The notes under the pieces are model-generated. The model ran no database searches. It saw only the letters and a list, made by a program, of their open reading frames with translations, and had not been told where the DNA came from. From assembly GCA_943356445.1 (NCBI GenBank), contig CALREZ010000001.1, forward strand, positions 15,818 to 79,817: 64,000 nucleotides of DNA, in the 5' to 3' direction. Shown here one piece after another: positions 581-51,154 of the stretch. Within the stretch, counting starts at the first letter, position 1. Each line of letters begins with the position of its first letter. The position numbers and the translations under genes are program-made. The DNA is from Candidatus Nomurabacteria bacterium (GTDB lineage Bacteria > Patescibacteriota > Minisyncoccia > Phycocordibacterales > CAIJYI01).

Positions 581-1660
581 ATGAAAATCATTATTCTTCT
601 TAGTCAATTTACTCCTACGGATGTCAACAAACATCTCTTGGATGATGTTCTTTTTTTAAGGAAGCAAGGCATTGACGCGAGGATCCTGACTCTGTTTCCG
701 GAGGTTCCCGAAAAAACTCTTTACCGCGAATCTTTGTTTGCAAAAGAAAATTTTTCTTGCGTTTCTTTCGGCCGTAAATGGGATCCGAGAGAATGGAAAA
801 AACTCATCGCCCGCTTGTCGGAAGAACACCCTGACCTTATTATCGTCGGAGGAAAGCCCAAGATGCTGGGAATTCTTTGCGCTCGTTTGTCTCACGTTCC
901 GAACCTTTTTGTCTTTGCCTACGATGAAGAGACTATCCGATCATCCCGGTCATTTTTTGGCGGTATTTTTGATTATCTTGCCAATTTCTTTATTGTCGCT
1001 TCTGACGTGACGAAAGAACAAATCCTCTCCCAGTGGCTTTCTCCTTCAAAAGTTGCGGTTATTCCCGCAGGAATTCCTTTTGACGACTACGGGAAACCGC
1101 CCGAACGGAACATCTTCAGTCAATTCGGTTTTGGAGACAATGAATTTATTTTTCTTTTTACCGGAGACCTCGTTCCTGAAAAAGGAGCGGATGTTCTTCT
1201 GCGGGCTTTTTCAAAGGTGCCGGAAGGGAAGCTTGTTATTGTCGGAGATGGCGCTGAAAAAGAAGGCCTTCAATCTCTTTCAGATAATTTGAATCTAAAA
1301 GAACGAGTGCTCTTTTTGAATGAGGATGGAAACATTCCGGAACTTTTGATGAGGGCGGGGGCTGTCGTTTTTCCTTCCAAGAAAGAAGAACCGCTCTCTG
1401 TTTTTGTCCCGGCTCTTATCTCTGGAGTCCCGGTTATCTCATCTGATTTTTTGGGGATAGAAGAAATGATTCGAAATGGAGAAAATGGAATCATCGTAAG
1501 GAAACAGGATTCCGACGATTTGGCAAAAGCCATGAATGCTTTGGTGTTGAATCCTAAAATGTTTGCGGCTCATCAAAAAGACGTGGAGAAAAAATTGGAG
1601 AATTTTTCCGTTTCTTCTCATTGCGCAAAATTGCTTTCTCTCGTTAAAACAAACAAATAA
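581..1660 (+). CDS. glycosyltransferase family 4
   Basis: 359-aa ORF. GT4/GT-B hallmarks: FTGDLVPEKGADVLLRAF and a C-terminal EEPLSVFVPALISGVPVISSD (EX7E-like) region. Confidence 0.8.
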   Translation: MKIIILLSQFTPTDVNKHLLDDVLFLRKQGIDARILTLFPEVPEKTLYRESLFAKENFSCVSFGRKWDPREWKKLIARLSEEHPDLIIVGGKPKMLGILCARLSHVPNLFVFAYDEETIRSSRSFFGGIFDYLANFFIVASDVTKEQILSQWLSPSKVAVIPAGIPFDDYGKPPERNIFSQFGFGDNEFIFLFTGDLVPEKGADVLLRAFSKVPEGKLVIVGDGAEKEGLQSLSDNLNLKERVLFLNEDGNIPELLMRAGAVVFPSKKEEPLSVFVPALISGVPVISSDFLGIEEMIRNGENGIIVRKQDSDDLAKAMNALVLNPKMFAAHQKDVEKKLENFSVSSHCAKLLSLVKTNK

Positions 1661-1668
1661 ATTATTAT

Positions 1669-2802: not shown

Positions 2803-3491
2803 ACACTTTTAATATGGAAAAAAACAGCGTAAAAGAATTTGAAGATGCTCGGTGGAGCGGGACAGACCAAACCCCCGTTTTTCGGCATGCAGAAGCCCTC
2901 AGAATGGTTTCAAAAGGACAAAAGGTCTTAGACATCGGCTGCGGAGATGGTCTTCTTTTGGAGGCTATGGTGAAGAAAGGCGTCATCGTTTCGGGTGTTG
3001 ATATCTCCGAGGAGGGGGTTAAGAAATGCCGAGCAAAAGGGCTTGAGGCTTCCGTCGCTAATGCCTCCCACGAAAAGCTCCCTTTTCAAGATCATTCCGT
3101 TGATACGGTTACTCTGCTTGATATTCTTGAACATGTGTATTCTCCGGAGGTTCTTTTGAAAGAAGCCGTCCGCGTTTCAAGAAAGAATGTTATTATAAGC
3201 GTCCCGAATTTCAATTCCTTGCCGGCGCGCATTCAGGTTCTTCTCGGTCGCGTACCCGAAAATAATCGTCCTCATAAAGGCCACCTGTATTGGTTTAACT
3301 ATTGCGTCCTGTTAAAACTTCTGAAGAAAAGCAATCTTCGCGTAGAAGAAGTGAGCTGCAATACTTTTTGGGAGAACGTTCCCGTCATCGGTTTCATGAT
3401 GAAAGGGCTTTGCCGGCTTTTTCCTTCTCTCTTTGCTTTGTCCTTCGTTGTGAAAGCGAGTACTATAATTTCCGACAAAAATGAGTCATAA
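2790..3491 (+). CDS. class I SAM-dependent methyltransferase
   Basis: 233 aa. SAM-binding motif I VLDIGCGDGLL and post-I acidic residue; 4-bp overlap with the upstream gene. Confidence 0.75.
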   Translation: MRALNTFNMEKNSVKEFEDARWSGTDQTPVFRHAEALRMVSKGQKVLDIGCGDGLLLEAMVKKGVIVSGVDISEEGVKKCRAKGLEASVANASHEKLPFQDHSVDTVTLLDILEHVYSPEVLLKEAVRVSRKNVIISVPNFNSLPARIQVLLGRVPENNRPHKGHLYWFNYCVLLKLLKKSNLRVEEVSCNTFWENVPVIGFMMKGLCRLFPSLFALSFVVKASTIISDKNES

Positions 3492-4632
3492 ACCTTTAAA
3501 TATCCTCGTCATCAACTGCGACTGGCGGAATCTTTTTGAAAAAGATTTTGACGAACTTCTCAAAAAAATGGATCGGTGTCTTATGCGCACCGAGCTCAAT
3601 AATTTTTTCTTTTTTTCATGGTCGGATAAAAGTTATGAAAAGCGCCAAGGCGAACGTTTCTTTTCCGTGCATAAAAAAACGATGTGGCAGAAATTCCGTC
3701 CGATGTTTGATCTCATTTCCGTTTTTGCTATTCCTCATATCTTAAAAAAACATCCGTTCCGTCCCGACGTTATTTTAGTCTACGATCTCGGTTTTCTGCC
3801 TGCGGCAAAAGCGGTAAAGAAACGCTTCGGAGGAAAGATTGTTTTATGTCTTATCAACAGGCCGGAAGAACTTGCCCGAACAAGAAAGTTTGCTGCCGTG
3901 AAAGCATCGTATTCTTTGCTTGGAGAAAAGTTTTTTATTCATTCTGCCGACATCGCTTACACTATCAATTCTTCCATGAAGCGGTACATTGAATCCCTTG
4001 GTTTTCCTCCTGATCGGATAAAAATCTTTTCATGCGATACCATTCGTCGAGATATTCCTTTTATTGAAAATTCCGTTCGCGGAACCGTAAGGCGGCAATA
4101 CGACATTTCTCCCGAGAAAAAGATTTTCCTCTCCGTGGGGAGATTGGAAGCCGAAAAAGATTTTCCTCGGCTTTTTGAAATACTTTCTCACCTGGATGAA
4201 AAATATCTGCTTATTATCCTCGGAAGCGGAAGCCTTCTCCCTGATTTTCAAAAGAGAGTAAAAGAACTGGGTATTGAAAATCGGGTTATTTTCGCCGGAC
4301 CGATAGAAAGAAAAGACCTTTGGAATTATTACCTGGATGCCGATATCTTTATGCTGCTATCCAAATCGGAAGCGCTTGGGCTGGTTTTTTGGGAGGCCAT
4401 GTATATGAATGTTCCGGTTATTGGCAGTATGGCGACCGGTATTTTGGAGACTATCGGGGGCGGTGGAGAGAGAGGTTTTTTGGTGGGGGAAAAAGATGAT
4501 ATACTGAGCATTGCTGAAAAAATAGACTTATGTCTTGCCGGTGGCGAGAAAATAGAAGAAATGAAAAAAAGAGCGCGGGAATACGTAGAAGTGCAAATGA
4601 AAAATACTCTATCCATTAACGATATCCTCTAA
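3481..4632 (+). CDS. glycosyltransferase family 4
   Basis: 383 aa. GRLEAEKDFPRLFEIL ... SEALGLVFWEAMYMNVPVIGS is a GT4 C-terminal domain. Confidence 0.75.
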   Translation: MSHKPLNILVINCDWRNLFEKDFDELLKKMDRCLMRTELNNFFFFSWSDKSYEKRQGERFFSVHKKTMWQKFRPMFDLISVFAIPHILKKHPFRPDVILVYDLGFLPAAKAVKKRFGGKIVLCLINRPEELARTRKFAAVKASYSLLGEKFFIHSADIAYTINSSMKRYIESLGFPPDRIKIFSCDTIRRDIPFIENSVRGTVRRQYDISPEKKIFLSVGRLEAEKDFPRLFEILSHLDEKYLLIILGSGSLLPDFQKRVKELGIENRVIFAGPIERKDLWNYYLDADIFMLLSKSEALGLVFWEAMYMNVPVIGSMATGILETIGGGGERGFLVGEKDDILSIAEKIDLCLAGGEKIEEMKKRAREYVEVQMKNTLSINDIL

Positions 4633-5382: not shown

Positions 5383-6465
5383 ATGTCGGATAAGAAATCA
5401 CCAACCGAATTGATTCATGAAAAGAAAGTTCTCTGTCTTTTTAACCGTGTCAGGGAGGGTTCTTTGGAACGAATAGCGAAAGGAAACGAAAGCGATAATG
5501 CTTATTTCGGCATGCTCCGTCTAAAACATTTCGGCTATTCGGCGGAATACTTGGAGATTGAACAATTTTTTTCTCCCGGTGCTTGCCGATTCTTGCGAAA
5601 ATATGTTTTGAACATTCATTTCGCGCATGCTCCGCTTTTTAGAAAAATTTTATCATACGATATTGTTTTTACTTCCACGGCGTTTGGAACATTCCTTCTG
5701 TGGGTTTTGTATCCGTTCAAAAAACCGAAATGGGTCATGTTTGATTTCAATCTGCTTGGTATCATCGGAGACAAGAAAACTTTGAAACAAAAAATATTTT
5801 CTTTCCTCGTTTCCCGTTCTTCCGGAATCGTGACTATCTCTCGCGAAGGAGCGGAAGAAATAAAAAAAGCATTTCCGAAGCTGAAAGATAAAACGCAGTT
5901 TATTCCGCTCGGGACGGATACGGTATGGTTTGCGCCTCAAAACATTCAAGAGGAAGATCTTATTTTTTCTCCGGGAAGAGACCCTGGCCGTGATTATAAA
6001 ACTTTTTTTGAAGCGGTAAGAGACCTTTCCGTTTCGGTAATCATTACCGCCAGACCTCAAAAATTGAAAAAATACTCATTACCTGAAAAGGTAAAAACAT
6101 CCGATCTCACAGCCAAAGAAATGGTTGAAATGTACGCAAAAGCGAAAATTGTTGTTTTGCCGCTGCATATTTCCGATGAATACTATAACGCCATGGGCTG
6201 TTCTACTCTTGTGGAAGCAATGGCTATGGGGAAGGCCGTGATTGCGACTCGTTCGGCGACAATGGAATCTTACATACGAGACGGAGAAAACGGTATCTTA
6301 GTGCCGCAGAACGATGCTATCGCTCTTCGCAATGCCATAAACGAACTTCTTTCTGACTCGGACAAGAGAAAACGTCTCGGGGAAAATGTCAGAAAATTTG
6401 CCGTTGAATACTGCGAAGCGGAAAAATTCGCAAAAAATCTCACTGACTTTTTTGAAAAAATATGA
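5383..6465 (+). CDS. glycosyltransferase family 4 (GT-B fold)
   Basis: The listed ORF begins at 5227 and overlaps the upstream gene; the internal ATG at 5383 (MSDKKSP) abuts the upstream stop. The C-terminus EYYNAMGCSTLVEAMAMGKAVIATRS is GT4-like. Confidence 0.7.
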   Translation: MSDKKSPTELIHEKKVLCLFNRVREGSLERIAKGNESDNAYFGMLRLKHFGYSAEYLEIEQFFSPGACRFLRKYVLNIHFAHAPLFRKILSYDIVFTSTAFGTFLLWVLYPFKKPKWVMFDFNLLGIIGDKKTLKQKIFSFLVSRSSGIVTISREGAEEIKKAFPKLKDKTQFIPLGTDTVWFAPQNIQEEDLIFSPGRDPGRDYKTFFEAVRDLSVSVIITARPQKLKKYSLPEKVKTSDLTAKEMVEMYAKAKIVVLPLHISDEYYNAMGCSTLVEAMAMGKAVIATRSATMESYIRDGENGILVPQNDAIALRNAINELLSDSDKRKRLGENVRKFAVEYCEAEKFAKNLTDFFEKI

Positions 6466-6860
6466 AGAAATTATTACACCAACACCAGTCAGTCATAAAG
6501 TTTTTAGCAACGGGTATTTTTGTCTTTTTGTTCAACTTGGTCGTCCTTTCTTTGTTTACCGAAGCGTTTAAAATATGGTACCTCGTTTCCTCTGTTGTTT
6601 CCTATGCGCTTTCCGTTGTTTTAAATTTTACGCTTCAGAAATTTTGGGTGTTTGAAAACTCCTCAAACGAAAAAACAAAAAGACAATTTATTTTTTATCT
6701 TTTTGTTTCGTGTACTTGCTTGATTCTTAATACTTTCTTTATGTATTTATTGGTGGATTATGCAAGAATACATTATCTGATTTCTCAGGCATTCATCACC
6801 GCAGCACTTGCCACTTTAAACTTTTTTATCAATAGAAACTTTATATTTGCTGAAAAATAA
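6462..6860 (+). CDS. GtrA-family membrane protein (polysaccharide synthesis/flippase-associated)
   Basis: 132 aa with 4 predicted TM segments. KFLATGIFVFLFNLVVLSLF ... LQKFWVFEN is typical of the GtrA family. Confidence 0.75.
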   Translation: MKKLLHQHQSVIKFLATGIFVFLFNLVVLSLFTEAFKIWYLVSSVVSYALSVVLNFTLQKFWVFENSSNEKTKRQFIFYLFVSCTCLILNTFFMYLLVDYARIHYLISQAFITAALATLNFFINRNFIFAEK

Positions 6861-15398: not shown

Positions 15399-15451
15399 GG
15401 TAAGAAAAGCGGTGCAATTAGACGCTTTTGACGGTTTGTCAAAACTATTTT

Positions 15452-30337: not shown

Positions 30338-30364
30338 TTCGATTCCCCTTTGTTTCAAAAAACA

Positions 30365-38045: not shown

Positions 38046-38276
38046 ATGGAAAAATTTAATGAAATGGCGGGCGAAGCTTTTAAAATGTCGCCATCTGAAG
38101 TAAAAGATTCTTTGACTCCGAAAGATATACCTGAGTGGGATTCCATGAACTTTCTTCTGTTTATTGCCGCTTTGGAGAAGGAATTTAATTTCTCATTCAG
38201 TATGGACGAAGTGCTAAACGCAAAATCGCTTGGCGATATAAAAGCGGTATTGAAGGGTAAAGGGTTGATTGCATGA
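38046..38276 (+). CDS. acyl carrier protein
   Basis: 76 aa. WDSMNFLLFIAALEKEF carries the DSL/M phosphopantetheine-attachment serine context. Confidence 0.7.
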   Translation: MEKFNEMAGEAFKMSPSEVKDSLTPKDIPEWDSMNFLLFIAALEKEFNFSFSMDEVLNAKSLGDIKAVLKGKGLIA

Positions 38277-44939: not shown

Positions 44940-46319
44940 ATGAACTCTGTTATTTTATGCGGCGGATCGGGAACAAGGCTCTGGCCCCTTTCGCGAAAAA
45001 ATTATCCGAAGCAGTTTTTAAATCTCTATAGCGACAAATCTCTTTTGCAGGAGACGTTTTTACGCATGCGCCGGATCATGCCGGATGAAAATATCTTTTT
45101 CGTTACGAACAAAGATAATTATTACAACGTGTTCAACCAGATAAAAGAAATTTTTCCGACATTCAGCGAAGATAATATCATTCTGGAACCGACGGCGCGC
45201 AACACGCTTCCGGCCGTCGCTTTGGCGGTGAAATACTTGAGGGAAAAGAAAAAAATACCGGCAACCGAGCCGATACTTTTTGCTCCCGCCGATCATTGCA
45301 TTCTTGACGGCGAAGCATTCGCCAAAGTGGTAAAGAAAATGGGCAAGGATGTCGGTGATCATATCGGCACTATCGGCATTGTTCCCCTTAAACCGGAAAC
45401 GGGCTACGGCTATATCCAAAAAGGAAAAAAACACGGCAGTTTTTTTGACGTTGTTTCTTTTAAGGAAAAACCGAACAAGACGACAGCGGAAGAATATCTT
45501 GCTTCGGGCGAGTATCTTTGGAACTCGGGCCTGTATATGTTTAATGCCAAAACTTTTGTTTCTGCCCTTAAAAAACATGTTCCCGAAACGGCGAAGGCGT
45601 ATGAAGAAAAATGGGAAAGATTTATAGAACATTTTTCCGAACTCCAAAAAATTTCCATAGACAATGGCATCTCCGAAAAATCGGACAAGATAATTCTTTT
45701 TGAGGGGGATTTCGGGTGGAGCGATATCGGTTCTTTTGACAGCCTTGCGGAAGCGTCGGAGAAAAACAAAAAACATTCTTCGCGCCACGCGAGCGTTGAT
45801 TCCAAAAACATATTCGTTCATACGACGAGCAACCGGCTTATCGCGACCCTCGGCGTTGAGGACTTGGTTATCATTGAAAACAACGACAGTATTCTTATCC
45901 ATAAAAGGGGAAGAAGCGAGGACGTGAAAAAAATGCTCGCGCATTTGGAAGAGAAAAAATATCCCGAGGTAGAGCACAACATTCTGGTTCACCGACCGTG
46001 GGGAAAATATGAGGTGCTGATAGACAATCCTTTGTATAAAGTGAAAAAAATCACCGTGTATCCGGGAGCGAAACTCTCTTATCAATCACATGAACACCGT
46101 TCCGAACACTGGGTTGTCGTGGAGGGCGTAGCGACCGCGACGGTGGGAAACGAAGAAATTCCGCTTCATAAAAATCAGAGCACGTTTATTCCGGCTCAGA
46201 CAAAACATCGTTTGGCGAATTTCGGGAAAATAAATTTGAAGATTATTGAGGTTCAAACGGGGACGTACTTCGGAGAGGATGATATCAAACGGTACGACGA
46301 CATCTATAAACGAATCTAA
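44940..46319 (+). CDS. manC: mannose-1-phosphate guanylyltransferase / mannose-6-phosphate isomerase (type II PMI)
   Basis: 459 aa. N-terminal ILCGGSGTRLWPLSR nucleotidyltransferase and a C-terminal cupin with a QSHEHRSEHWVVVEG motif. Confidence 0.9.
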   Translation: MNSVILCGGSGTRLWPLSRKNYPKQFLNLYSDKSLLQETFLRMRRIMPDENIFFVTNKDNYYNVFNQIKEIFPTFSEDNIILEPTARNTLPAVALAVKYLREKKKIPATEPILFAPADHCILDGEAFAKVVKKMGKDVGDHIGTIGIVPLKPETGYGYIQKGKKHGSFFDVVSFKEKPNKTTAEEYLASGEYLWNSGLYMFNAKTFVSALKKHVPETAKAYEEKWERFIEHFSELQKISIDNGISEKSDKIILFEGDFGWSDIGSFDSLAEASEKNKKHSSRHASVDSKNIFVHTTSNRLIATLGVEDLVIIENNDSILIHKRGRSEDVKKMLAHLEEKKYPEVEHNILVHRPWGKYEVLIDNPLYKVKKITVYPGAKLSYQSHEHRSEHWVVVEGVATATVGNEEIPLHKNQSTFIPAQTKHRLANFGKINLKIIEVQTGTYFGEDDIKRYDDIYKRI

Positions 46320-46387: not shown

Positions 46388-47884
46388 ATGCTTTTCAATT
46401 CGTTTTCTTTTCTCATCTTCTTTCCGGTTGTTACCGCCGGATATTTTCTTGCTCCGCACAAATATCGCTGGGCGTTTCTTCTTGCGGCGAGTTGTGTTTT
46501 TTACATGGCTTTTATTCCGTACTATATACTGATACTTTTTACCGCCATCGGAATTGACTATTATGCGGGCATAAAAATTGAAGATACGGAAGACGTGAAA
46601 AAGAGAAAAACGTATTTGATTTTAAGCGTGGTCAGCACTTCGCTTCTGCTTATCCTTTTCAAGTACTTTAATTTTTTCAATGCCAATTTTAAAGAAATAG
46701 CGAGTTTTCTGCATTGGAATTATTCCATTGGTTTTTTGAGTATCGCTTTGCCGATAGGGCTTTCTTTTCATACGTTTCAAAGTTTGAGTTATGTTATTGA
46801 GGTATATCGTCGGAAGCAGAAAGCCGAACGACACCTCGGCATTTATTCGCTCTATGTCATGTTCTATCCGCAATTGGTTGCGGGGCCGATTGAACGTCCT
46901 CAGAATTTGCTTCACCAATTCCGCGAAAGGCATGAATTTGATTACCTGAGATTAAGAGCGGGGCTTCAACGGATGCTGTGGGGATTTTTCAAAAAAGCGG
47001 TAATCGCGGATAATCTCGCCATGTACGTCGGTCTTGTTTTTGGAAACCCGCATCATTATTCCGGAGCTCCTCTTTTGCTTGCTTCGGTATTTTTCGCTTT
47101 TCAGATATATTGCGATTTCTCCGGCTATTCCGATATCGCTCTCGGTTCGGCGAAGGTTATGGGTTTTGATCTCATGGAAAATTTTAAAGTCCCGTATGGC
47201 GCAACGACCGTAACGGAATTTTGGAGAAGATGGCATATCTCGCTTTCTTCGTGGATACGCGATTATATTTTCTTCCCGCTTTCCATGGGATGGAGGAAAA
47301 TGGGGAAGCTCGGCATCGTGTGCGCCACGTTGGTTACGTTTGCTTTTGCCGGACTGTGGCATGGGGCGAGCTGGCTGTTTGTTTTCTTTGGTTTGCTTCA
47401 TGGATTCGTTCTTTCTCTTGAACTTCTTACTTCTCGGTGGAGAAATAAAATATCGTCATTTTTTCCGGACATATGTTCAAATATATTTGGCAGGCTCTAC
47501 GTCTTTTCTTTTTGGACAGCCTCGCTTGTTTTTTTTCGGGCGGGAACCTTTGCTGATGCGCTCTATATAGTATCTCGTTTTCCTTCGGGGATTTCCGAGT
47601 TTGGCCGAACCGTGGGGACGGCTCTTTTTCAGATGAGCGTTGCTCCTTTCCGAATGCTTTTTTCCACACTCCAACTGTACTATGGAAATTTGAGGTTCTC
47701 TTTTCTTTTGGGATTGGTGCTGGTCGTTATTGTTTCTGAAATACTGGAGTATAAAATAGGACTTTTTGTTTTACTCAACAAAATCCCCAAGATTTTCAGA
47801 TGGATATGGTATGTTGTTTTGGTTCTCTCCATAATGAATCTGGGGGTAACTACCGAAGTGCTGTTTATTTATTTTCAATTCTAA
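46388..47884 (+). CDS. MBOAT family O-acyltransferase (paralog of 40182..41642)
   Basis: 498 aa. About 55-60% identical to the other MBOAT by eye (MLFNSFSFLIFFP ... RRWHISLSSWIRDYIFFPL ... IYFQF). Confidence 0.85.
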   Translation: MLFNSFSFLIFFPVVTAGYFLAPHKYRWAFLLAASCVFYMAFIPYYILILFTAIGIDYYAGIKIEDTEDVKKRKTYLILSVVSTSLLLILFKYFNFFNANFKEIASFLHWNYSIGFLSIALPIGLSFHTFQSLSYVIEVYRRKQKAERHLGIYSLYVMFYPQLVAGPIERPQNLLHQFRERHEFDYLRLRAGLQRMLWGFFKKAVIADNLAMYVGLVFGNPHHYSGAPLLLASVFFAFQIYCDFSGYSDIALGSAKVMGFDLMENFKVPYGATTVTEFWRRWHISLSSWIRDYIFFPLSMGWRKMGKLGIVCATLVTFAFAGLWHGASWLFVFFGLLHGFVLSLELLTSRWRNKISSFFPDICSNIFGRLYVFSFWTASLVFFRAGTFADALYIVSRFPSGISEFGRTVGTALFQMSVAPFRMLFSTLQLYYGNLRFSFLLGLVLVVIVSEILEYKIGLFVLLNKIPKIFRWIWYVVLVLSIMNLGVTTEVLFIYFQF

Positions 47885-47885
47885 T

Positions 47886-48824
47886 ATGAAAATTTTTTGG
47901 AGCTGGACAGTATTTTTCATCATCATTTTTCTTTCGCAGATCGCGATCTCTCATTTTATTACCGAACCGTGGGGAGCGAGAACCCTTTCTGAAACCCTTG
48001 ATAAAGGATATGACGTCTTGTACTTCGGAGACAGTACGGTTGACGCTTCGGCCGATACGGATACTGACAAAGCTCCGATCACCGAAATGCTCAGACGTTT
48101 AAAACCGGAGCTTTCCATCGCCGACCTTTCCCGCAGTTCCAATCATCTGGGTCTCTATGAAGCCATGGTTGGGCAGATCGCAAAATCCGGAAAAAAGCCC
48201 GTCATAATCATACCCATCAATATGAGAAGCTTTTCCCCGTGGTACGACAAGCGGCCGGAATTTCAGTTTGAAAAGGAGATATTTTATCTGACGGCGCCGT
48301 CTCCTCTTATTGCTTGTTTTTACAAACCGCTTGCCGTATTTCGCGCGATAAATGTTAACGCCGTAACTTTTTCCGAGTTTTATCAGACGCCGGTTTATCG
48401 GGGAAAAAAGCAGATTGGCATTGTCGCAGATTTTAATGACACGGTTCTCGCGACAACAACGCCGGAAAATATCAAAACGAGTTTTATGCTCGGGTATATG
48501 TTTGATCTTGATGCAAAGCATCGAAAGCTTGATTCGTTGCGAAACATTATTGACCAAGCTGACCGATCGGGTATAAAAATATATTTTTATATTACCCCGA
48601 TAAATCACGAGCAGGGAGAAAAATTTTACGGAAAAGAATTCAAAGAACAAATGGAGAAGAATACCGATACCGTTTGCGCCATTCTCAAAGAGAAAAAACA
48701 TTCTTGCTTGAATCTCGCTTTTTCCGTTGATCCGAGCTATTTCCAGTCACCCGTTCTCCCGAGCGAACATCTCAATGAAAAGGGAAGAATGTTTGTGGCT
48801 GAAGAGGTTGCCAAAATGCTTTAG
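47886..48824 (+). CDS. putative MBOAT partner protein, SGNH-like
   Basis: 312 aa. N-terminal TM, VLYFGDSTVD (block I GDS) and a PSEHLNEKG region; directly follows the MBOAT gene. Confidence 0.45.
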   Translation: MKIFWSWTVFFIIIFLSQIAISHFITEPWGARTLSETLDKGYDVLYFGDSTVDASADTDTDKAPITEMLRRLKPELSIADLSRSSNHLGLYEAMVGQIAKSGKKPVIIIPINMRSFSPWYDKRPEFQFEKEIFYLTAPSPLIACFYKPLAVFRAINVNAVTFSEFYQTPVYRGKKQIGIVADFNDTVLATTTPENIKTSFMLGYMFDLDAKHRKLDSLRNIIDQADRSGIKIYFYITPINHEQGEKFYGKEFKEQMEKNTDTVCAILKEKKHSCLNLAFSVDPSYFQSPVLPSEHLNEKGRMFVAEEVAKML

Positions 48825-48880
48825 AGGAAGTTTGTCTATGATTCTTTTTTATTTAATAAAGTTGGTGTACTATAGAGGCT

Positions 48881-51154
48881 ATGAAAACAACAGAAAATTT
48901 TTTACGCAACGCGATTCTTACGGGAATCTTTGCGGTGCCGTTTTTGGCATTCCTTGTTACCGGCTCAATGTTTTTTCCTTTTATTACCGGGAAAAACTTT
49001 GGATTTAGAATTATCACCGAGGTGATATTCGCTTTGTGGATATTGCTCGCGTACGCGAATGTCTCGTATCGTCCGAAATTTTCATGGATTATGGCGACGG
49101 CCGCATCTTTTGTCGGAATCGTTTTTCTCGCGGATATTTTTGGCGCCAATCCCGCAAGAAGCATTTGGTCCAATTATGAACGAATGGAAGGCTTTGCGGC
49201 GCTCATCCACGTTTTTGCTTTTTTTGTCGTTGCCGGTTCCGTTTTGACCAGAGACCTTTGGACGAAATTTTTACAGACATCGGTTTTTGCCGCGACCATT
49301 ATGGCTCTCTACGGATGGATGCAGTATGCCGGAGGGGCGGCAATCAATCAGGGCGGCGGACGTCTCGACGGGCGTTTTGGCAATGCGGCCTATCTTGGAG
49401 GATATCTGCTTTTTAACGCTTTTCTGACCGCTTTTCTTATGACGCGAACCAAGAAATATAATTTCCTGTGGTGGATTTACGCGTGCGCCATCATTCTTCA
49501 GGTGATCATCATGTTCCTTACGGAAACTCGCGGTTCCATGCTCGGATTTTTTGTCGGCGTTACGCTTTCGTCCCTCATTTTTATTTTCTTGAGCAAAAAG
49601 AATCCGCTCCTGAAAAAAATTGCCATCGGGGTTGTCGGGTTCGTTGCCGTCTTTATCTTTTCGGTATTTCAATTCAAAGATTCAAGTTTTGTACAGAGTC
49701 ATTCCACCCTCTCTCGTTTTGCCACGATTTCTCTTTCCGGGTCAACGGTGGATTCTCGCTTCATGGTTTGGGGTATGGCGATAGACGGATTTAAAGAACG
49801 CCCGATCCTCGGCTGGGGACAGGATAACTTCAATGTGGTGTTCAATAAGTATTACAATCCCGGCATGTGGAATCAGGAGCAGTGGTTTGATCGCGCTCAC
49901 GACATCTTCTTGGATTGGCTGATTTCTGCCGGATTCTTGGGACTCTTCGCGTATCTTCTCCTTTTTGTTTTAGGCGTGTTGTTTGTTTGGGAGACGGGAA
50001 CAAAGTTCGGAGAAAAAGGTTTGTTGAAAAACATTTCGTTTGCTTGGAAAAAATATGTTTCCGGAGAAGAAGAGCATCATCTTCTTGAAAAGAGCATCTT
50101 GACCGGATTGTTTGCGGCTTACTTCGTCCATAACATTTTCGTCTTTGATAATTTGTTCAGTTATATTCTTTTCTTTTCCGTTCTCGCTTTTCTCCATTCT
50201 TCTCATGTAGAGGAACCGGTGATGGCGAAAAATTTTACAAAGAAATTTGTACCGGGAAATGACGTTCTTCCTTTGTCGTATATCGCCGGCCCGGTCTTGT
50301 TTGTTTTTGTCATTGTCATGTATATCGTCAACATCAAACCGATACTGGCGAGTCAGGCGATTATTGCCGGAATCCAGCCACATCAGGATGCTTCCGGAAA
50401 AGTGACTTTTACGAAAGAAAATTTTGACAGCTTCAAACAGGTTATTGCGTATGATACGTTCGGCAATTCCGAGGCAAGAGAACAGATCGTGCAGGCGGCC
50501 GTTCGGAACGCTTCGCCGGGCGTAGATAAGGATATGCAGAAGCAACTTTTTGAACTCGCCAAAGAACAGATTCTGGAGCAGATACGGGATGTCCCCGAAG
50601 ATGCTCGCATTGAAACTTTTGCCGGAACGCTTTTCTTGAGATACGGACAGCAGGATGAAGCGCTCGCTCATTTTGAAAGAGCTCATGAGCTTTCTCCGAA
50701 TAAACAGACGATTAGTCTGAGTCTTATTCTCTGTTATTTGAATGCCGGACGAGCCGATGACGCGATGGCTTTGGCGAAAGCGACCTATGAACTTGATACT
50801 GACTTTAAAGAGGCGGCAAAGATGTACGCGGTAACGGTCCTCTACAAAGGAGACCAAAAACTTGCCGATGATATTCTTATCAAAAACTTTGGGACAGCGG
50901 CGATATATGATGAAGACCTTATTACCACCTACGCTTTTATGAAGAAGTACGACAAAGTCCTCGAGATCCTCAATCAAAAACTTAAAGAGAAAGAAGACTC
51001 TCAGGTTCGCATTCGTCTCGCCGCTACATATCTTGAAATGGGCGATAACGCCGCGTCTATCGCCGAGATAGAAAAAGTGATGGCGGAAGACCCGAGCTTT
51101 AAACAGCAGGGAGAGTACTTTATTCAGGAAATTCGCGCCGGGAGGAAGCCGTAA
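48881..51154 (+). CDS. O-antigen ligase/polymerase-like (Wzy_C) membrane protein with C-terminal TPR repeats
   Basis: 757 aa with about 12 TM segments, including the LTETRGSMLGFFVG motif of the O-antigen ligase family. The C-terminal ~250 aa have TPR-like repeats (AHFERAHELSPNKQ ...). Confidence 0.7.
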   Translation: MKTTENFLRNAILTGIFAVPFLAFLVTGSMFFPFITGKNFGFRIITEVIFALWILLAYANVSYRPKFSWIMATAASFVGIVFLADIFGANPARSIWSNYERMEGFAALIHVFAFFVVAGSVLTRDLWTKFLQTSVFAATIMALYGWMQYAGGAAINQGGGRLDGRFGNAAYLGGYLLFNAFLTAFLMTRTKKYNFLWWIYACAIILQVIIMFLTETRGSMLGFFVGVTLSSLIFIFLSKKNPLLKKIAIGVVGFVAVFIFSVFQFKDSSFVQSHSTLSRFATISLSGSTVDSRFMVWGMAIDGFKERPILGWGQDNFNVVFNKYYNPGMWNQEQWFDRAHDIFLDWLISAGFLGLFAYLLLFVLGVLFVWETGTKFGEKGLLKNISFAWKKYVSGEEEHHLLEKSILTGLFAAYFVHNIFVFDNLFSYILFFSVLAFLHSSHVEEPVMAKNFTKKFVPGNDVLPLSYIAGPVLFVFVIVMYIVNIKPILASQAIIAGIQPHQDASGKVTFTKENFDSFKQVIAYDTFGNSEAREQIVQAAVRNASPGVDKDMQKQLFELAKEQILEQIRDVPEDARIETFAGTLFLRYGQQDEALAHFERAHELSPNKQTISLSLILCYLNAGRADDAMALAKATYELDTDFKEAAKMYAVTVLYKGDQKLADDILIKNFGTAAIYDEDLITTYAFMKKYDKVLEILNQKLKEKEDSQVRIRLAATYLEMGDNAASIAEIEKVMAEDPSFKQQGEYFIQEIRAGRKP

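What the first reader, a model, noticed from the sequence alone, without database searches (positions are those of the whole stretch)
581..51154. 50-kb glycan island predicting a heavily methylated, fucosylated, heptose-containing polymer exported by a Wzm/Wzt system with a Wzt C-terminal extension
Contents of the island:
- about 14 glycosyltransferases
- complete GDP-D-glycero-alpha-D-manno-heptose and GDP-L-fucose pathways
- both a GT11 alpha1,2- and a GT10 alpha1,3-fucosyltransferase (the pair that builds Lewis-type epitopes in Helicobacter)
- seven methyltransferase domains, including FkbM-type and two GT-methyltransferase fusions
- an ABC exporter whose ATPase carries a ~170-aa C-terminal extension

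In E. coli O8/O9a the Wzt C-terminal domain binds the methyl or phospho-methyl cap that terminates chain growth. By analogy, one of the methyltransferases here may act as a chain terminator that is read by Wzt.

The extent of methylation capacity, together with a Wzy/ligase-like TPR protein in an otherwise ABC-dependent locus, is unusual for a small AT-rich (apparently CPR-like) genome.
Basis: partly seen in the sequence, partly recalled or inferred. Interest (0 to 1): 0.6.

Follow-up and report, generated by a model that had tools for sequence, protein, structure and literature searches.

The report
Capped-glycan export island in a CPR bacterium
An ultra-small Patescibacteria (CPR) bacterium uses about 50 kb to build, methylate, export and attach a complex surface sugar chain with machinery like that of O-antigens and Gram-positive S-layer glycans; it is a real but largely ordinary member of that kind.

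Summary
The gene inventory is confirmed. It holds 12 profile-supported glycosyltransferases plus 2 putative ones, GDP-fucose and NDP-heptose genes, GT10, GT11, seven methyltransferase domains, two GT–methyltransferase fusions and Wzm/Wzt. The Wzt C-terminus is a genuine cap-binding domain: Pfam Wzt_C matches, and the AlphaFold model's best hits are all three solved Wzt carbohydrate-binding domains.

- a Pse-like nonulosonate pathway with a sialyltransferase-like/methyltransferase fusion;
- a PPTase–FkbH–ACP–dehydratase–reductase set next to a DltB-like MBOAT;
- a GtrA/ArnC-like/10-TM trio.

The Wzy_C–TPR protein is not odd. The family is abundant in Patescibacteria, lies within 10 kb of Wzm/Wzt in 10 related loci, and parallels the TPR-bearing O-oligosaccharyltransferase WsfB of S-layer glycan clusters.

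In two close relatives (Wzm 96% identical), DNA similarity stops exactly at the Wzt NBD/CBD boundary and resumes inside GT10. The cap-reading domain therefore belongs to a swapped cassette (CBD, SGNH enzyme, GT10). It does not track the nonulosonate module.

A methyl cap remains possible but unproven. Verdict: a new member of a known kind, of moderate interest.

The parts
581..1660 (+). GT4-type glycosyltransferase
   Evidence: Pfam Glycos_transf_1, 112 bits
1669..2802 (+). GT4-type glycosyltransferase
   Evidence: Pfam Glycos_transf_1, 117 bits
2790..3491 (+). Class I SAM methyltransferase (MetW/Methyltransf_11 type)
   Evidence: Pfam. NCBIfam gives only sub-threshold hits; the second best is the oligosaccharide methyltransferase MftM.
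3481..4632 (+). GT4-type glycosyltransferase
   Evidence: Pfam Glycos_transf_1, 119 bits
4637..5377 (+). FkbM-family methyltransferase
   Evidence: Pfam Methyltransf_21, 61.5 bits. NCBIfam fkbM_fam, 51.5 > 37.7.
5383..6465 (+). GT4-like glycosyltransferase (C-terminal GT-B half detected)
   Evidence: Pfam Glycos_transf_1, 74 bits. The start follows the 360-aa gene call in L004.
6462..6860 (+). GtrA/GtcA-like small membrane protein (candidate polyprenyl-P-sugar flippase)
   Evidence: Pfam GtrA_DPMS_TM, 76.8 bits
6847..8520 (+). Membrane protein with about 10 TM segments and no family match. Putative extracytoplasmic (GT-C-like) transferase of the three-part module.
   Evidence: Hydropathy. No Pfam or NCBIfam hit. 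The role is inferred from its position only.
8528..9472 (+). GT2 polyprenyl-phosphate glycosyltransferase (ArnC/GtrB/PgfS-like), with C-terminal TM segments
   Evidence: Pfam Glycos_transf_2. Full-length NCBIfam alignment to ArnC, 204 bits, and to PgfS, 156 bits, both below cut-off. TM segments.
9479..9901 (+). 23S-rRNA-IVP family four-helix protein; probably a passenger gene
   Evidence: Pfam 23S_rRNA_IVP, 129.5 bits. GC 0.33.
9928..11808 (+). AsnB-type glutamine amidotransferase
   Evidence: Pfam Asn_synthase, 350 bits. NCBIfam asn_synth_AEB, 500 > 267; the best score is to the EPS-associated amidotransferase TIGR03108. WsfA is the analogue in the P. alvei slg cluster (PMC2943079).
11811..12548 (+). 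Class I SAM methyltransferase (Methyltransf_11)
   Evidence: Pfam, 80 bits
12549..13694 (-). GT4-type glycosyltransferase
   Evidence: Pfam Glycos_transf_1, 96.7 bits
13691..14617 (-). 308-aa protein with no family match; putative GT-A-type transferase
   Evidence: No Pfam, NCBIfam or PDB hit. It has an EDD (DxD-like) motif. Homologues of 37-47% identity lie next to Wzm/Wzt in 8 loci.
14598..15398 (-). Divergent SAM methyltransferase
   Evidence: Pfam Methyltransf_11, 33.6 > 21.2. A 64% homologue is in L013.
15428..16570 (+). GT4-like glycosyltransferase
   Evidence: Pfam Glycos_transf_1, 64.8 bits
16545..17627 (-). GT2 glycosyltransferase (EpsE/TuaG-like)
   Evidence: Pfam Glycos_transf_2, 124.6 bits. 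NCBIfam.
17558..18052 (-). GmhB-like heptose bisphosphate phosphatase (HAD-IIIA)
   Evidence: The best NCBIfam names are GmhB models, 147 bits, below cut-off
18052..19041 (-). HddA-like GHMP sugar kinase (heptose-7-P 1-kinase, alpha-anomer route)
   Evidence: Pfam GHMP_kinases_N/C. Best NCBIfam hit is HddA, 161.8 bits, below the 600 cut-off.
19050..19769 (-). Sugar-1-phosphate nucleotidyltransferase (HddC candidate)
   Evidence: Pfam NTP_transferase, 141.6 bits. HddC is only the 5th NCBIfam hit, 96 bits. The nucleotide specificity is not established.
19766..20746 (-). UDP-glucose 4-epimerase GalE
   Evidence: NCBIfam TIGR01179, 384 > 262
20751..21326 (-). GmhA-like sedoheptulose-7-P isomerase
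   Evidence: Pfam SIS_2. Best NCBIfam hit is gmhA, 107 bits, below cut-off.
21364..22170 (-). GT11-family glycosyltransferase (alpha-1,2-fucosyltransferase family)
   Evidence: Pfam Glyco_transf_11, 103.7 bits. Homologues lie in 14 Wzm/Wzt loci.
22172..23800 (-). GT2 + DUF268/Methyltransf_11 fusion (542 aa)
   Evidence: Pfam. In the relatives L007 and L008 a stand-alone DUF268 gene lies in the same gene run as GT11 (adjacent in L008).
23803..25590 (-). Sialyltransferase/MptE-like (GT42/Maf-like) domain (residues 1-295) fused to a Methyltransf_23 module (residues about 300-595)
   Evidence: The family profile hits Cst-I (3.8e-6), Cst-II (about 6e-5) and Maf (0.014). All 50 family members hit Pfam MptE-like. 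AF2 pLDDT is 94.4, and the top Foldseek hits are CstII, ST8SiaIII and MptE. The methyltransferase module occurs alone or fused to other GTs elsewhere.
25752..27068 (-). DUF4910/DUF2172 aminopeptidase-like protein with a wHTH; role unknown; conserved with the nonulosonate module
   Evidence: Pfam. 85% identical in L006.
27073..27750 (-). Methyltransf_23 methyltransferase overlapping PseF
   Evidence: Pfam, 70 bits. 90% identical in L006.
27716..28447 (-). PseF-type CMP-nonulosonate synthetase
   Evidence: NCBIfam TIGR03584, 266 > 205.7
28635..29237 (+). DUF218 protein conserved inside the nonulosonate module
   Evidence: Weak Pfam DUF218 hit. 94% identical and in the same position in L006.
29282..30358 (-). 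NeuB-family nonulosonate synthase
   Evidence: Pfam NeuB, 237.8 bits. NCBIfam NeuB 269 and PseI 235, both below cut-off.
30365..31309 (-). RmlD-like NDP-4-keto-sugar reductase
   Evidence: Pfam RmlD_sub_bind, 174.8 bits. NCBIfam rmlD, 176 < 224.
31312..32295 (-). PseB, the inverting UDP-GlcNAc 4,6-dehydratase
   Evidence: NCBIfam TIGR03589, 436.9 > 407.75
32363..33430 (-). GT10-family glycosyltransferase (alpha-1,3/4-fucosyltransferase family); part of the variable cassette
   Evidence: Pfam Glyco_transf_10, 64.1 bits. Its identity matrix mirrors that of the CBD.
33427..34299 (-). Cytoplasmic SGNH/GDSL-type esterase or acyltransferase; part of the variable cassette
   Evidence: Weak Pfam hits. 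It has GDS (residue 9) and DGAH (residue 197) motifs. It occurs only here and in L089 (58% identity).
34316..34837 (-). Wzt carbohydrate-binding domain (residues 255-427)
   Evidence: Pfam Wzt_C, 1.2e-10. AF2 pLDDT 92.5. Foldseek hits: 8dky 7e-10, 5hno 2e-7, 2r5o 9e-7.
34838..35599 (-). Wzt nucleotide-binding domain
   Evidence: Pfam ABC_tran. PDB hits: A. aeolicus Wzt 6.9e-68, TarH, TagH, RfbE.
35604..36422 (-). Wzm ABC-2 permease
   Evidence: Pfam ABC2_membrane, 68.8 bits
36560..36916 (+). 4'-phosphopantetheinyl transferase
   Evidence: Pfam ACPS. NCBIfam pantethn_trn, 67 > 45.
37001..38044 (+). FkbH-domain protein (HAD-IIIC; loads a glyceryl unit on a carrier protein in known systems)
   Evidence: NCBIfam TIGR01686, 296 > 146.65
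38046..38276 (+). Acyl carrier protein (76 aa, DSM motif)
   Evidence: Pfam PP-binding, 26.4 > 20.8. Sequence.
38273..38692 (+). MaoC-type (R)-hydratase/dehydratase
   Evidence: Pfam MaoC_dehydratas, 74 bits
38700..39458 (+). FabG-like SDR reductase
   Evidence: Pfam adh_short_C2. NCBIfam FabG-like, sub-threshold.
39462..40178 (+). Second SDR reductase
   Evidence: Pfam
40182..41642 (+). MBOAT membrane O-acyltransferase (DltB-like)
   Evidence: Pfam MBOAT, 87.6 bits. PDB DltB, 5e-27. NCBIfam DltB, 163 < 375.
41645..42775 (+). TM-anchored partner protein with SGNH-like GTS and DPSH motifs
   Evidence: No profile hit. Motifs. A 28% homologue follows the MBOAT in L015.
42790..43725 (-). GDP-L-fucose synthase (Fcl)
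   Evidence: NCBIfam NF047922, 493.4 against a cut-off of 500
43752..44798 (-). GDP-mannose 4,6-dehydratase (Gmd)
   Evidence: NCBIfam TIGR01472, 554.9 > 415
44940..46319 (+). Mannose-1-P guanylyltransferase / mannose-6-P isomerase (ManC)
   Evidence: NCBIfam TIGR01479, 451 > 373
46388..47884 (+). Second MBOAT O-acyltransferase
   Evidence: Pfam MBOAT, 93.9 bits. PDB DltB, 1e-24.
47886..48824 (+). TM-anchored partner protein with a GDS motif (SGNH-like)
   Evidence: No profile hit. Motif and N-terminal TM segment.
48881..51154 (+). Wzy_C (O-antigen-ligase family) membrane protein with a C-terminal TPR domain; candidate ligase or O-oligosaccharyltransferase
   Evidence: Pfam Wzy_C, 75 bits, plus TPR. 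More than 5,300 homologues, the named ones from Patescibacteria. It lies within 10 kb of Wzm/Wzt in 10 loci.

Best explanation
The island encodes an ABC-transporter-dependent surface-glycan pathway in a Patescibacteria (Parcubacteria/Paceibacterota-type) bacterium. It works like the capped O-polysaccharide systems (E. coli O8/O9a, K. pneumoniae O12, A. aeolicus). Its nearest counterpart is the Gram-positive S-layer glycan (slg) clusters.

1. Precursors. The island encodes enzymes for GDP-Fuc, an NDP-D,D-heptose, a UDP-hexose 4-epimer and a CMP-nonulosonate. Gmd, ManC, GalE, PseB and PseF are shown by equivalog-level hits. The other enzymes are inferred at family level.
2. Initiation. A phosphoglycosyl transferase encoded outside the window starts the chain on a polyprenyl phosphate. 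This is a gap in the evidence.
3. Elongation. Cytoplasmic GT4, GT2, GT10, GT11 and sialyltransferase-like enzymes extend the chain, and SAM methyltransferases O-methylate it (inferred).
4. Export checkpoint. A non-reducing-end modification marks the finished chain. The Wzt C-terminal CBD reads it and licenses export through Wzm/Wzt. The fold is shown; binding is inferred. The cap-determining genes are most likely those that travel with the CBD: GT10 and the adjacent SGNH enzyme, possibly followed by methylation.
5. Decoration outside the membrane. A GtrA/ArnC-like/10-TM module and two MBOAT plus SGNH-like pairs modify the chain. One MBOAT appears to be fed, Dlt-style, by a PPTase-FkbH-ACP-dehydratase-reductase set (inferred).
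6. Attachment. The Wzy_C-TPR protein transfers the chain to its acceptor. CPR bacteria studied so far lack lipid A, so the acceptor is probably a surface protein or a cell-wall component rather than LPS (inferred).
For: Transporter
- Wzm and the Wzt NBD match solved O-antigen and teichoic-acid exporters.
- The Wzt C-terminus matches Pfam Wzt_C. Its AF2 model (pLDDT 92.5) has all three solved Wzt CBDs as best PDB hits: the 3-O-Me-Man-binding, the Kdo-cap-binding and the O9a domains.
- Caps of methyl, methyl-phosphate or Kdo gate export in characterised systems (PMC9445017).

CBD swap
- L006 and L090 have Wzm 96% identical to the window, but their CBDs are only 36-41% identical.
- DNA similarity of 77-91% on both flanks stops at window 34866-34869, the NBD/CBD boundary. 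It resumes inside GT10.
- The more distant L089 (Wzm 82%) keeps the same CBD type (67%), the SGNH gene (58%) and GT10 (65%).

Other modules
- Precursor pathways.
- GT-methyltransferase fusions.
- Sialyltransferase-like domain.
- Decoration modules. The FkbH-ACP-MBOAT set recurs with Wzm/Wzt in L015.

Ligase and acceptor
- The Wzy_C-TPR family is abundant in Patescibacteria and linked to Wzm/Wzt in 10 loci.
- slg clusters combine wzm/wzt, a methyltransferase-GT terminator (WsaE), a Wzy_C O-oligosaccharyltransferase (WsfB carries a TPR) and an Asn-synthase homologue (PMC2943079).
- A Parcubacterium lacks lipid A and LPS genes (PMC5220378).
Against: - No initiating phosphoglycosyl transferase was found in the window or in the 9.4 kb upstream of it.
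- No chemistry exists: the glycan, the cap and the acceptor are all unknown.
- GT10 and the SGNH gene adjoin the CBD. Their co-variation could reflect simple physical linkage in one recombination event rather than functional coupling, and it rests on only four relatives.
- Whether the TPR domain faces outward could not be decided from hydropathy.
- The island may serve more than one glycoconjugate.
- Heptose, NeuB, Fcl and MBOAT assignments are below curated equivalog cut-offs.
Confidence: 0.6

Rival explanations
1. The export signal is an O-methyl (or phospho-methyl) cap placed by one of the island's methyltransferases, as with WbdD or WsaE, and the Wzt CBD reads that methyl group.
For: - There are seven methyltransferase domains, two of them fused to GTs as in WsaE (PMC2943079).
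- The closest structural match of the CBD is the A. aeolicus domain crystallised with 3-O-methyl-mannose (PMC9445017).
- DUF268 and other methyltransferases plus GT11 recur next to Wzm/Wzt_C in other Patescibacteria.
- This version is compatible with the best explanation if the GT10-added residue is the one that is methylated.
Against: - No WbdD-like kinase was seen in any profile scan.
- No methyltransferase lies in the block that is exchanged together with the CBD.
- The methyl-pocket residues of A. aeolicus could not be mapped: identity is 14% and the sequence alignment ends before Trp362.
- The substrates of all seven methyltransferases are unknown.
Confidence: 0.3
2. The cap is a terminal nonulosonic acid, possibly methylated. 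The sialyltransferase-like/methyltransferase fusion (23803-) adds it and the CBD reads it, analogous to the Kdo cap made by WbbB in K. pneumoniae O12.
For: - A CMP-nonulosonate pathway lies in the island.
- A sialyltransferase/MptE-like domain is fused to a methyltransferase next to it.
- Kdo-cap CBDs are among the structural matches.
- Nonulosonates are typically terminal residues, as in the T. forsythia O-glycan (PMC5420450).
- A nonulosonate module plus an MptE-like gene also sits beside Wzt in L090.
Against: - L006 keeps the same nonulosonate genes at 90-96% protein identity, yet its CBD is only 36% identical.
- L090 has a different nonulosonate pathway (NeuB 31% identical), but its transferase domain is 70% identical to the window's.
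- CBD type therefore does not track the nonulosonate module.
- MptE/Maf-type enzymes can also glycosylate proteins directly.
Confidence: 0.15
3. The 50 kb is not one pathway. It is a cluster of two or three independent glycosylation systems: a Wzm/Wzt-exported polymer, Maf-like direct nonulosonate glycosylation of a protein, and a GtrA/ArnC-like lipid-sugar decoration system. They sit together in a recombination-prone region.
For: - Genes lie in several divergent blocks on both strands.
- GC dips to 0.34-0.38 across 24-32 kb.
- Modules are shuffled among relatives: the nonulosonate type differs in L090, the transketolase cassette is in L006-L008, and the MBOAT is absent beside the FkbH set in L006 and L090.
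- Selfish genes are inserted between wzm and wzt in relatives.
- Two further GT4 genes lie beyond PEPCK upstream of the window.
Against: - Only one exporter and one ligase-type gene are present in the 50 kb.
- The ACPS-FkbH | Wzm-Wzt-GT10-nonulosonate order is conserved in close relatives.
- This reading is partly compatible with the best explanation rather than exclusive of it.
Confidence: 0.35
4. It is a conventional LPS O-antigen locus of a diderm bacterium, with Wzy_C-TPR acting as WaaL.
For: Wzm/Wzt with a CBD and a Wzy_C ligase-family protein are the classical O-polysaccharide components.
Against: - The closest homologues of Wzt and Wzy_C-TPR are overwhelmingly from Patescibacteria.
- Parcubacteria analysed so far lack lipid A and LPS genes (PMC5220378).
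- No lpx, kds or lpt gene is in the 64 kb.
Confidence: 0.03

Closest known systems
S-layer glycan (slg) clusters of Geobacillus stearothermophilus NRS 2004/3a and Paenibacillus alvei CCM 2051T (PMC2943079). The GDP-D-glycero-alpha-D-manno-heptose route of Aneurinibacillus thermoaerophilus S-layer glycan is cited from my own knowledge.
   Same: - wzm/wzt export in a monoderm-type cell.
- A multidomain methyltransferase + GT enzyme (WsaE) that makes a methyl cap.
- A Wzy_C O-oligosaccharyltransferase, TPR-bearing in WsfB.
- An Asn-synthase homologue (WsfA).
- A low-GC, tightly packed cluster.
- The GHMP-kinase (alpha-anomer) heptose route.
   Different: - No S-layer protein gene or WbaP/WsaP initiator in the window.
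- Far more GTs and methyltransferases.
- Added nonulosonate, FkbH-ACP/MBOAT and GtrA/ArnC-like modules.
- The organism is an uncultured Patescibacterium whose envelope is uncharacterised.
Capped O-polysaccharide ABC export: E. coli O8/O9a (WbdD, Wzt CBD 2R5O), K. pneumoniae O12/Raoultella (WbbB Kdo cap, 5HNO) and A. aeolicus WzmWzt (8DKY, 8DKU; PMC9445017)
   Same: - Wzt = NBD + C-terminal beta-sandwich CBD.
- The CBD is far more variable than the NBD and is exchanged as a module at the domain boundary.
- The best structural matches are these very domains.
   Different: - Sequence identity to the solved CBDs is only 10-15%.
- No WbdD-type kinase/methyltransferase or WbbB-type GT99 was seen in the profile scans.
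- The acceptor is unlikely to be lipid A-core.
Campylobacter Cst-I/Cst-II (GT42) sialyltransferases and Maf/MptE-like flagellin nonulosonate transferases
   Same: The N-terminal 295 aa of 23803- belongs to a large family. Its profile hits Cst-I, Cst-II and Maf, and all 50 aligned members hit Pfam MptE-like. The family shares the GxGPS nucleotide-sugar motif, and the fold search returns sialyltransferases.
   Different: - TM-scores are modest (0.41-0.52).
- The domain is fused to a roughly 300-aa methyltransferase module. No other protein covering both halves turned up among the 5.8 billion searched.
- Donor and acceptor are unknown.
Dlt system (DltA-DltC-DltB-DltD), which D-alanylates teichoic acids
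   Same: A carrier protein with its own PPTase lies next to a DltB-like MBOAT and a TM-anchored SGNH-like partner.
   Different: - There is no DltA-type adenylating ligase.
- The carrier is presumably loaded by an FkbH-type enzyme and processed by a MaoC dehydratase and SDRs, so the acyl group would be a C3 hydroxy-acid derivative rather than D-alanine.
- The MBOAT scores 163 against the DltB cut-off of 375.
Three-component extracytoplasmic glycosylation (GtrA/GtrB/GtrC; CsbB/GtcA/YfhO; ArnC/ArnT; PgfS system)
   Same: A GtrA-family protein, an ArnC/PgfS-like GT2 with C-terminal TM segments and a polytopic membrane protein are adjacent.
   Different: The 10-TM protein matches no GT-C family profile.

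Membership tests
Wzm/Wzt ABC-transporter-dependent glycan export with cap-binding CBD | ABC-2 permease (Wzm) adjacent to the ATPase | tested here: met
   Pfam ABC2_membrane, 68.8 bits; the gene ends 4 nt upstream of wzt
Wzm/Wzt ABC-transporter-dependent glycan export with cap-binding CBD | Wzt-type NBD | tested here: met
   phmmer hit to A. aeolicus Wzt, 6.9e-68, then TarH, TagH and RfbE
Wzm/Wzt ABC-transporter-dependent glycan export with cap-binding CBD | C-terminal beta-sandwich carbohydrate-binding domain | tested here: met
   Pfam Wzt_C, 42 > 30.4. AF2 pLDDT 92.5. Foldseek top 16 hits are all Wzt CBDs or full-length Wzt; TM-score normalised to the target is up to 0.82.
Wzm/Wzt ABC-transporter-dependent glycan export with cap-binding CBD | Dedicated chain terminator (WbdD kinase/methyltransferase, or WbbB GT99 Kdo transferase) | tested here: inconclusive
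   No kinase or GT99 profile hit. Candidates are the GT2-DUF268 fusion, the sialyltransferase-like/methyltransferase fusion, and GT10 + SGNH.
Wzm/Wzt ABC-transporter-dependent glycan export with cap-binding CBD | CBD binds the non-reducing terminal cap and is required for export | not testable with these tools
   Needs binding and export assays
Wzm/Wzt ABC-transporter-dependent glycan export with cap-binding CBD | Initiating polyprenyl-phosphate phosphoglycosyl transferase (WecA or WbaP type) in the system | tested here: not met
   No Glycos_transf_4 or Bac_transf hit in the ORFs scanned in the window (63218-63958 was not scanned) or in the 9.4 kb upstream. The relative L008 has Bac_transf next to its locus. 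The gene may lie elsewhere in the genome.
Gram-positive S-layer glycan (slg) O-glycosylation cluster | wzm/wzt plus a multidomain GT-methyltransferase | tested here: met
   Definition from PMC2943079.
Gram-positive S-layer glycan (slg) O-glycosylation cluster | Wzy_C-domain O-oligosaccharyltransferase (TPR in WsfB) | tested here: met
   Met at domain level: Wzy_C 75 bits + TPR. Transferase activity and the protein acceptor were not tested.
Gram-positive S-layer glycan (slg) O-glycosylation cluster | Glycosylated S-layer (or other) target protein | not tested
   No S-layer-type gene was recognised in the ORFs profiled on the right flank. A whole-genome search and glycoproteomics are needed.
GDP-D-glycero-alpha-D-manno-heptose pathway (GmhA, HddA, GmhB, HddC) | All four enzyme classes present and clustered | tested here: met
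   SIS, GHMP kinase, HAD-IIIA and NTP_transferase genes are contiguous at 17558-21326
GDP-D-glycero-alpha-D-manno-heptose pathway (GmhA, HddA, GmhB, HddC) | Each protein reaches the curated equivalog score | tested here: not met
   HddA 162/600, HddC 96/300, GmhA 107/209, GmhB 147/178. GDP as the nucleotide is inferred only.
GDP-L-fucose pathway | ManC, Gmd and Fcl | tested here: met
   ManC 451 > 373, Gmd 555 > 415. Fcl 493.4 against 500, marginally below.
Pseudaminic acid pathway (PseB, C, H, G, I, F) | PseB and PseF | tested here: met
   436.9 > 407.75 and 266 > 205.7
Pseudaminic acid pathway (PseB, C, H, G, I, F) | PseC aminotransferase, PseH acetyltransferase and PseG hydrolase | tested here: not met
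   No DegT, GNAT/hexapeptide or GT28-like gene in the island. An RmlD-like reductase and a DUF218 gene sit in the module instead, and both are conserved in L006.
Pseudaminic acid pathway (PseB, C, H, G, I, F) | PseI synthase at equivalog level | tested here: not met
   PseI 235 < 340; NeuB 269 < 400
GT42/Maf (MptE-like) nonulosonate transferases | Sequence-profile and fold similarity to Cst-I, Cst-II and Maf | tested here: met
   Profile hits 3.8e-6, about 6e-5 and 0.014. 50 of 50 family members hit MptE-like. Foldseek top hits are CstII, ST8SiaIII and MptE, with modest TM-scores of 0.41-0.52.
GT42/Maf (MptE-like) nonulosonate transferases | CMP-nonulosonate donor use and catalytic residues | not tested
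   Only the GTGPS motif was noted
Dlt-type carrier-protein/MBOAT acylation | MBOAT + carrier protein + extracytoplasmic SGNH-like partner | tested here: inconclusive
   MBOAT and ACP are met. The partner protein has only short motifs and no profile hit.
Dlt-type carrier-protein/MBOAT acylation | DltA-type adenylating ligase that loads D-alanine | tested here: not met
   No AMP-binding domain. An FkbH-type loader is present instead.

The most novel reading that the evidence does not exclude
Patescibacteria run a serotype-like, cap-gated glycan export system. Specificity would be switched by exchanging a three-part cassette (Wzt CBD + SGNH enzyme + GT10 transferase). The exported chain would be attached to surface proteins by a TPR-bearing Wzy_C oligosaccharyltransferase. 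It would also be decorated by a second kind of carrier-protein-dependent MBOAT system, in which an FkbH-loaded, dehydratase/reductase-processed C3 acyl-ACP (glyceryl or lactyl) replaces the D-alanyl carrier protein of Dlt. A side possibility is that the PseB + RmlD-like + NeuB + PseF module, which lacks PseC, PseH and PseG, makes a 7-hydroxy (7-deamino) pseudaminic-acid analogue.
Probability: 0.2. Interest if true: 0.65.

Novelty: new member of a known kind. Interest (0 to 1): 0.42.

Why it matters
CPR/Patescibacteria are episymbionts with minimal genomes and an uncharacterised envelope. Fifty kilobases devoted to one surface-glycan region suggests that the sugar coat is central to their biology, for example in host attachment or phage avoidance.

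The CBD cassette swap between near-identical loci suggests glycan-type switching comparable to O-serotype variation, in a lineage without LPS.

Three items here can be tested by heterologous expression without culturing the organism: the Wzt CBD, the sialyltransferase-like/methyltransferase fusion, and the FkbH-ACP-MBOAT set. Apart from these, each component belongs to a known family, and the overall logic is already described for O-antigens and S-layer glycans.

Tried and rejected
- Heptose dehydratase. I first read the SDR in the heptose cluster (19766-) as a GDP-heptose 4,6-dehydratase making a 6-deoxyheptose. This was rejected: the gene is GalE at equivalog level.
- CBD against PDB by sequence. 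A phmmer search of the CBD alone found nothing. Only the fold search was informative.
- Methyl-pocket residues. Mapping the A. aeolicus methyl-pocket residues (Leu300, Thr346, Ala348, Trp362) was abandoned. The sequence alignment is unreliable in the CBD and ends at residue 351.
- N-terminus of 23803-. The word-indexed search found no homologue of this half. The exhaustive HMMER search was needed.
- Proteins without family matches. 13691-, 6847, 41645 and 47886 gave no Pfam or NCBIfam hit even at E ≤ 10, and 13691- (the only one of the four searched against PDB) gave no PDB hit. They remain putative.
- TPR topology. A 12-TM and a 13-TM model are both possible from hydropathy and the positive-inside rule.
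- Literature. Searches for FkbH + MBOAT, and for Patescibacteria with nonulosonate or Wzt terms, returned nothing relevant.
- Mis-assembly was rejected.
- An LPS O-antigen reading was rejected as unlikely (PMC5220378).
- Nonulosonate cap. I favoured this at first but downgraded it after the comparison with L006 and L090.

Full report
**Observation**

- Six GT4-type genes, three GT2, one GT11 and one GT10 have Pfam support above threshold.
- A twelfth glycosyltransferase domain is the N-terminal half of the 595-aa protein 23803-25590(-).
- Two further candidates have no family match and remain putative. These are the 308-aa protein 13691-14617(-) and the roughly 10-TM protein 6847-8520.
- Seven methyltransferase domains are present, including an FkbM member and two GT-methyltransferase fusions.
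- By NCBIfam, none of the methyltransferases reaches an RNA or protein methyltransferase cut-off. That refutation criterion is therefore not met, although their substrates are unknown.
- ManC and Gmd pass their equivalog cut-offs, and Fcl scores 493 against 500.
- The heptose genes (SIS isomerase, GHMP kinase, HAD-IIIA phosphatase, nucleotidyltransferase) are contiguous. Three of the four are best named as GmhA, HddA and GmhB; for the nucleotidyltransferase HddC is only the fifth-best hit. All four fall below the equivalog cut-offs.
- The SDR gene inside the heptose cluster is GalE.

**Organism and assembly**

- The window carries a bacterial 16S rRNA gene at 51560-53056, with no 23S gene following, and a tRNA-Ile 5.3 kb downstream.
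- The nearest homologues of Wzt and of the Wzy_C-TPR protein are named Parcubacteria, Paceibacterota, Vogelbacteria, Zambryskibacteria and similar. The CPR attribution therefore holds.
- Four independent assemblies (two ENA, two Logan) are colinear with window 1-11660 and 24316-45599 at 99.3-99.97% identity. The two ENA pieces come from one 116-kb contig with a constant coordinate offset. Mis-assembly is excluded for those spans.

**The Wzt extension**

- Wzt (34316-35599, minus strand) aligns to A. aeolicus Wzt over residues 56-374 (6.9e-68) and to the teichoic-acid and galactan exporters over the NBD.
- Residues 274-395 match Pfam Wzt_C.
- An AlphaFold2 model of residues 255-427, built on 67 homologues, has pLDDT 92.5 and is a beta-sandwich.
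- Its best PDB matches are the three solved Wzt CBDs. A. aeolicus, crystallised with 3-O-methyl-mannose, gives E 7e-10 and a target-normalised TM-score of 0.82. The Kdo-cap binder of the O12 system gives 2e-7, and E. coli O9a gives 9e-7.
- The extension is therefore a real CBD.
- In characterised systems such domains read a methyl, methyl-phosphate or Kdo cap and are essential for export (PMC9445017).

1. A nonulosonate module (25752-32295).
   - It holds PseB and PseF at equivalog level, a NeuB-family synthase, an RmlD-like reductase, a DUF218 protein, a Methyltransf_23 enzyme and a DUF4910/DUF2172 protein.
   - It has no PseC, PseH or PseG.
2. The 595-aa protein next to that module.
   - Its C-terminal roughly 300 aa is a methyltransferase module that occurs alone or fused to GT2, GT4 or GT11 domains in other organisms.
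   - Its N-terminal 295 aa belongs to a large family of 3,774 cluster representatives.
   - The family profile hits the Campylobacter sialyltransferases Cst-I and Cst-II and a Maf protein. All 50 aligned members hit Pfam MptE-like.
   - The AF2 model (pLDDT 94.4) retrieves CstII, ST8SiaIII and MptE first, with modest TM-scores.
3. An acylation module (36560-42775).
   - It holds a PPTase, an FkbH-domain protein (296 > 146.65), a 76-aa ACP, a MaoC dehydratase and two SDRs.
   - These are followed by a DltB-like MBOAT and a TM-anchored protein with SGNH-like motifs.
   - A second MBOAT/partner pair lies at 46388-48824.
4. A GtrA-like protein, a polytopic membrane protein and an ArnC/PgfS-like GT2 at 6462-9472.

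**Comparative genomics**

Three relatives share the ACPS-FkbH | Wzm-Wzt-GT10 backbone. Percent identities to the window:

| Locus | Wzm | Wzt NBD | Wzt CBD | GT10 |
|---|---|---|---|---|
| L006 (GCA_026395595.1) | 96 | 83 | 36 | 52 |
| L090 (GCA_943355145.1) | 96 | 83 | 41 | 52 |
| L089 | 82 | 76 | 67 | 65 |

- At DNA level, L006 and L090 are 77-91% identical to the window on both sides.
- Similarity ends at window 34866 and 34869, the NBD/CBD junction. It resumes only inside GT10, at 32771 and 32712.
- L089 is uniformly about 68% identical across Wzm-Wzt-SGNH-GT10. It alone shares the 290-aa SGNH gene that sits between wzt and GT10.
- L006, L007 and L008 carry a split transketolase-like pair plus an epimerase at that position instead.
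- The nonulosonate genes of L006 are 90-96% identical to the window's, despite the different CBD.
- L090 has a different, NeuC-type nonulosonate module. Even so, its MptE-like transferase is 70% identical to the window's N-terminal domain.
- The CBD therefore behaves as part of an exchangeable cassette with GT10 and the gene between them. It does not track Wzm, the NBD or the nonulosonate pathway.
- Caveat: these genes are adjacent, so co-transfer alone could produce the pattern, and only four loci are compared. The breakpoint at the domain boundary is the stronger argument, and it mirrors the serotype-specific CBDs of E. coli O8/O9a.

**Wider distribution**

- In a tblastn matrix over 83 Wzt-anchored loci, GT11 homologues occur in 14, Gmd and Fcl in 14 each, and Wzy_C-TPR homologues in 10. 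The last are all labelled Patescibacteria or Saccharibacteria. Every hit lies within 10 kb of Wzm/Wzt.
- The FkbH-ACP-MaoC-SDR-MBOAT-partner set recurs beside Wzm/Wzt in a Paceibacterota MAG at 28-59% identity (L015).
- The Wzy_C-TPR architecture has more than 5,300 homologues at E ≤ 1e-10, and those listed with an organism name come from Patescibacteria.

**Interpretation**

The locus works like a capped, ABC-transporter-dependent polysaccharide pathway. A Parcubacterium studied in detail lacks lipid A and LPS genes, and the CPR envelope is unresolved (PMC5220378). The nearest described counterpart is therefore the S-layer glycan (slg) cluster of Gram-positive bacteria (PMC2943079). Those clusters contain:
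- wzm/wzt;
- WsaE, a methyltransferase plus two GT domains that makes the 2-O-methyl cap;
- Wzy_C-domain O-oligosaccharyltransferases WsaB and WsfB, with a C-terminal TPR in WsfB and in PglL;
- an Asn-synthase homologue.

The identity of the cap is open. A nonulosonate cap is disfavoured by the L006 and L090 comparison. I favour a cap determined by GT10 and the SGNH enzyme, possibly further methylated, on the basis of the cassette structure.

Main gaps:
- the missing initiating transferase;
- the unknown acceptor;
- the undetermined orientation of the TPR domain;
- the possibility that the island serves more than one glycoconjugate.

**Novelty and score**

- Every component belongs to a known family, and the overall logic is established. 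This is a new, uncharacterised member of a known kind.
- Three sub-features are more unusual: the CBD/SGNH/GT10 swap, the sialyltransferase-like/methyltransferase fusion, and the FkbH-ACP set adjacent to a DltB-like MBOAT.
- Held-library searches for FkbH + MBOAT and for Patescibacteria with nonulosonate or Wzt terms found nothing relevant.
- Interest: 0.42.

Noticed in passing
window 53043-53056 (3' end of the 16S rRNA) and the upstream regions of about 57 genes: The 16S 3' tail reads GGAACAAUUUCAUU where the Rfam consensus has GGAUCACCUCCUUU, so the CCUCC anti-Shine-Dalgarno core is absent. Few genes have a GGAGG-like motif. Many have a TATAAT box 5-12 nt before the ATG, which suggests leaderless or very short-leader mRNAs.
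   Followed up: partly
window 51560-53056 and 58347-58419: The 16S rRNA gene is not followed by a 23S gene. Protein genes follow it, and the tRNA-Ile lies 5.3 kb downstream, so the rRNA genes are unlinked.
   Followed up: no
window 25752-32295; L006 11796-17936: The nonulosonate module has PseB, a NeuB-family synthase and PseF but no PseC, PseH or PseG. An RmlD-like reductase and a DUF218 gene are conserved in their place (90-96% identical in L006). If nothing is supplied in trans, this predicts a 7-hydroxy pseudaminic-acid analogue.
   Followed up: partly
L006 6179-6565; L090 7160-8287; L007 8406-9731: In relatives, unrelated genes are inserted between wzm and wzt: a PemK toxin, an AAA_14/DUF4143 ATPase and a B12-radical-SAM gene. 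The wzm-wzt junction therefore looks like an insertion and recombination hot spot.
   Followed up: no
L006 7958-10638; L007 11308-13988; L008 11316-13983: A split transketolase-like pair (N and C halves) plus an epimerase follows wzt in three relatives, in the position of the window's SGNH gene. It may make a two-carbon-branched or chain-extended sugar.
   Followed up: no
L052 (DATJQC010000007.1, labelled Candidatus Nanoarchaeia archaeon): A MAG labelled as a DPANN archaeon carries Wzt (47% identity) and Wzm (66% identity) homologues of the window's genes. This is either CPR-DPANN gene transfer or a binning error.
   Followed up: no
window 9479-9901: A 23S-rRNA-intervening-sequence-family (bAvd-like) four-helix protein gene with low GC (0.33) sits in the middle of the glycan island.
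   Followed up: no
L004 1644-9825 (upstream of the window start): The contig upstream of the window carries a VirD4/TraG-like coupling protein, a PemK toxin, two more GT4 genes, a radical-SAM gene and PEPCK. The glycan region may therefore extend about 6 kb beyond the window, and it abuts mobile-element-type genes.
   Followed up: no
window 22172-23800; L007 17616-18350; L008 18066-18827: DUF268, a methyltransferase-like family named for Caenorhabditis proteins, is fused to GT2 in the window. In the relatives L007 and L008 a stand-alone DUF268 gene lies in the same gene run as GT11: adjacent to it in L008, and separated from it by a Methyltransf_23 gene in L007.
   Followed up: no
L006 186-2318; L090 701-3303: Close relatives have DegT and NUDIX genes next to Gmd and Fcl, adjacent to the FkbH-ACP set but with no MBOAT. 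There the acyl-ACP might N-acylate a perosamine-type amino sugar, reminiscent of V. cholerae O1 (own knowledge). The window lacks DegT and has the MBOAT instead.
   Followed up: no
window 24001-32000: GC falls to 0.34-0.38 across the nonulosonate and methyltransferase-fusion block, against 0.40-0.45 elsewhere.
   Followed up: no
window 55504-57354 and 59045-59476: A 616-aa protein with a C-terminal PP2C phosphatase domain and a 143-aa ankyrin-repeat protein lie downstream of the 16S gene.
   Followed up: no
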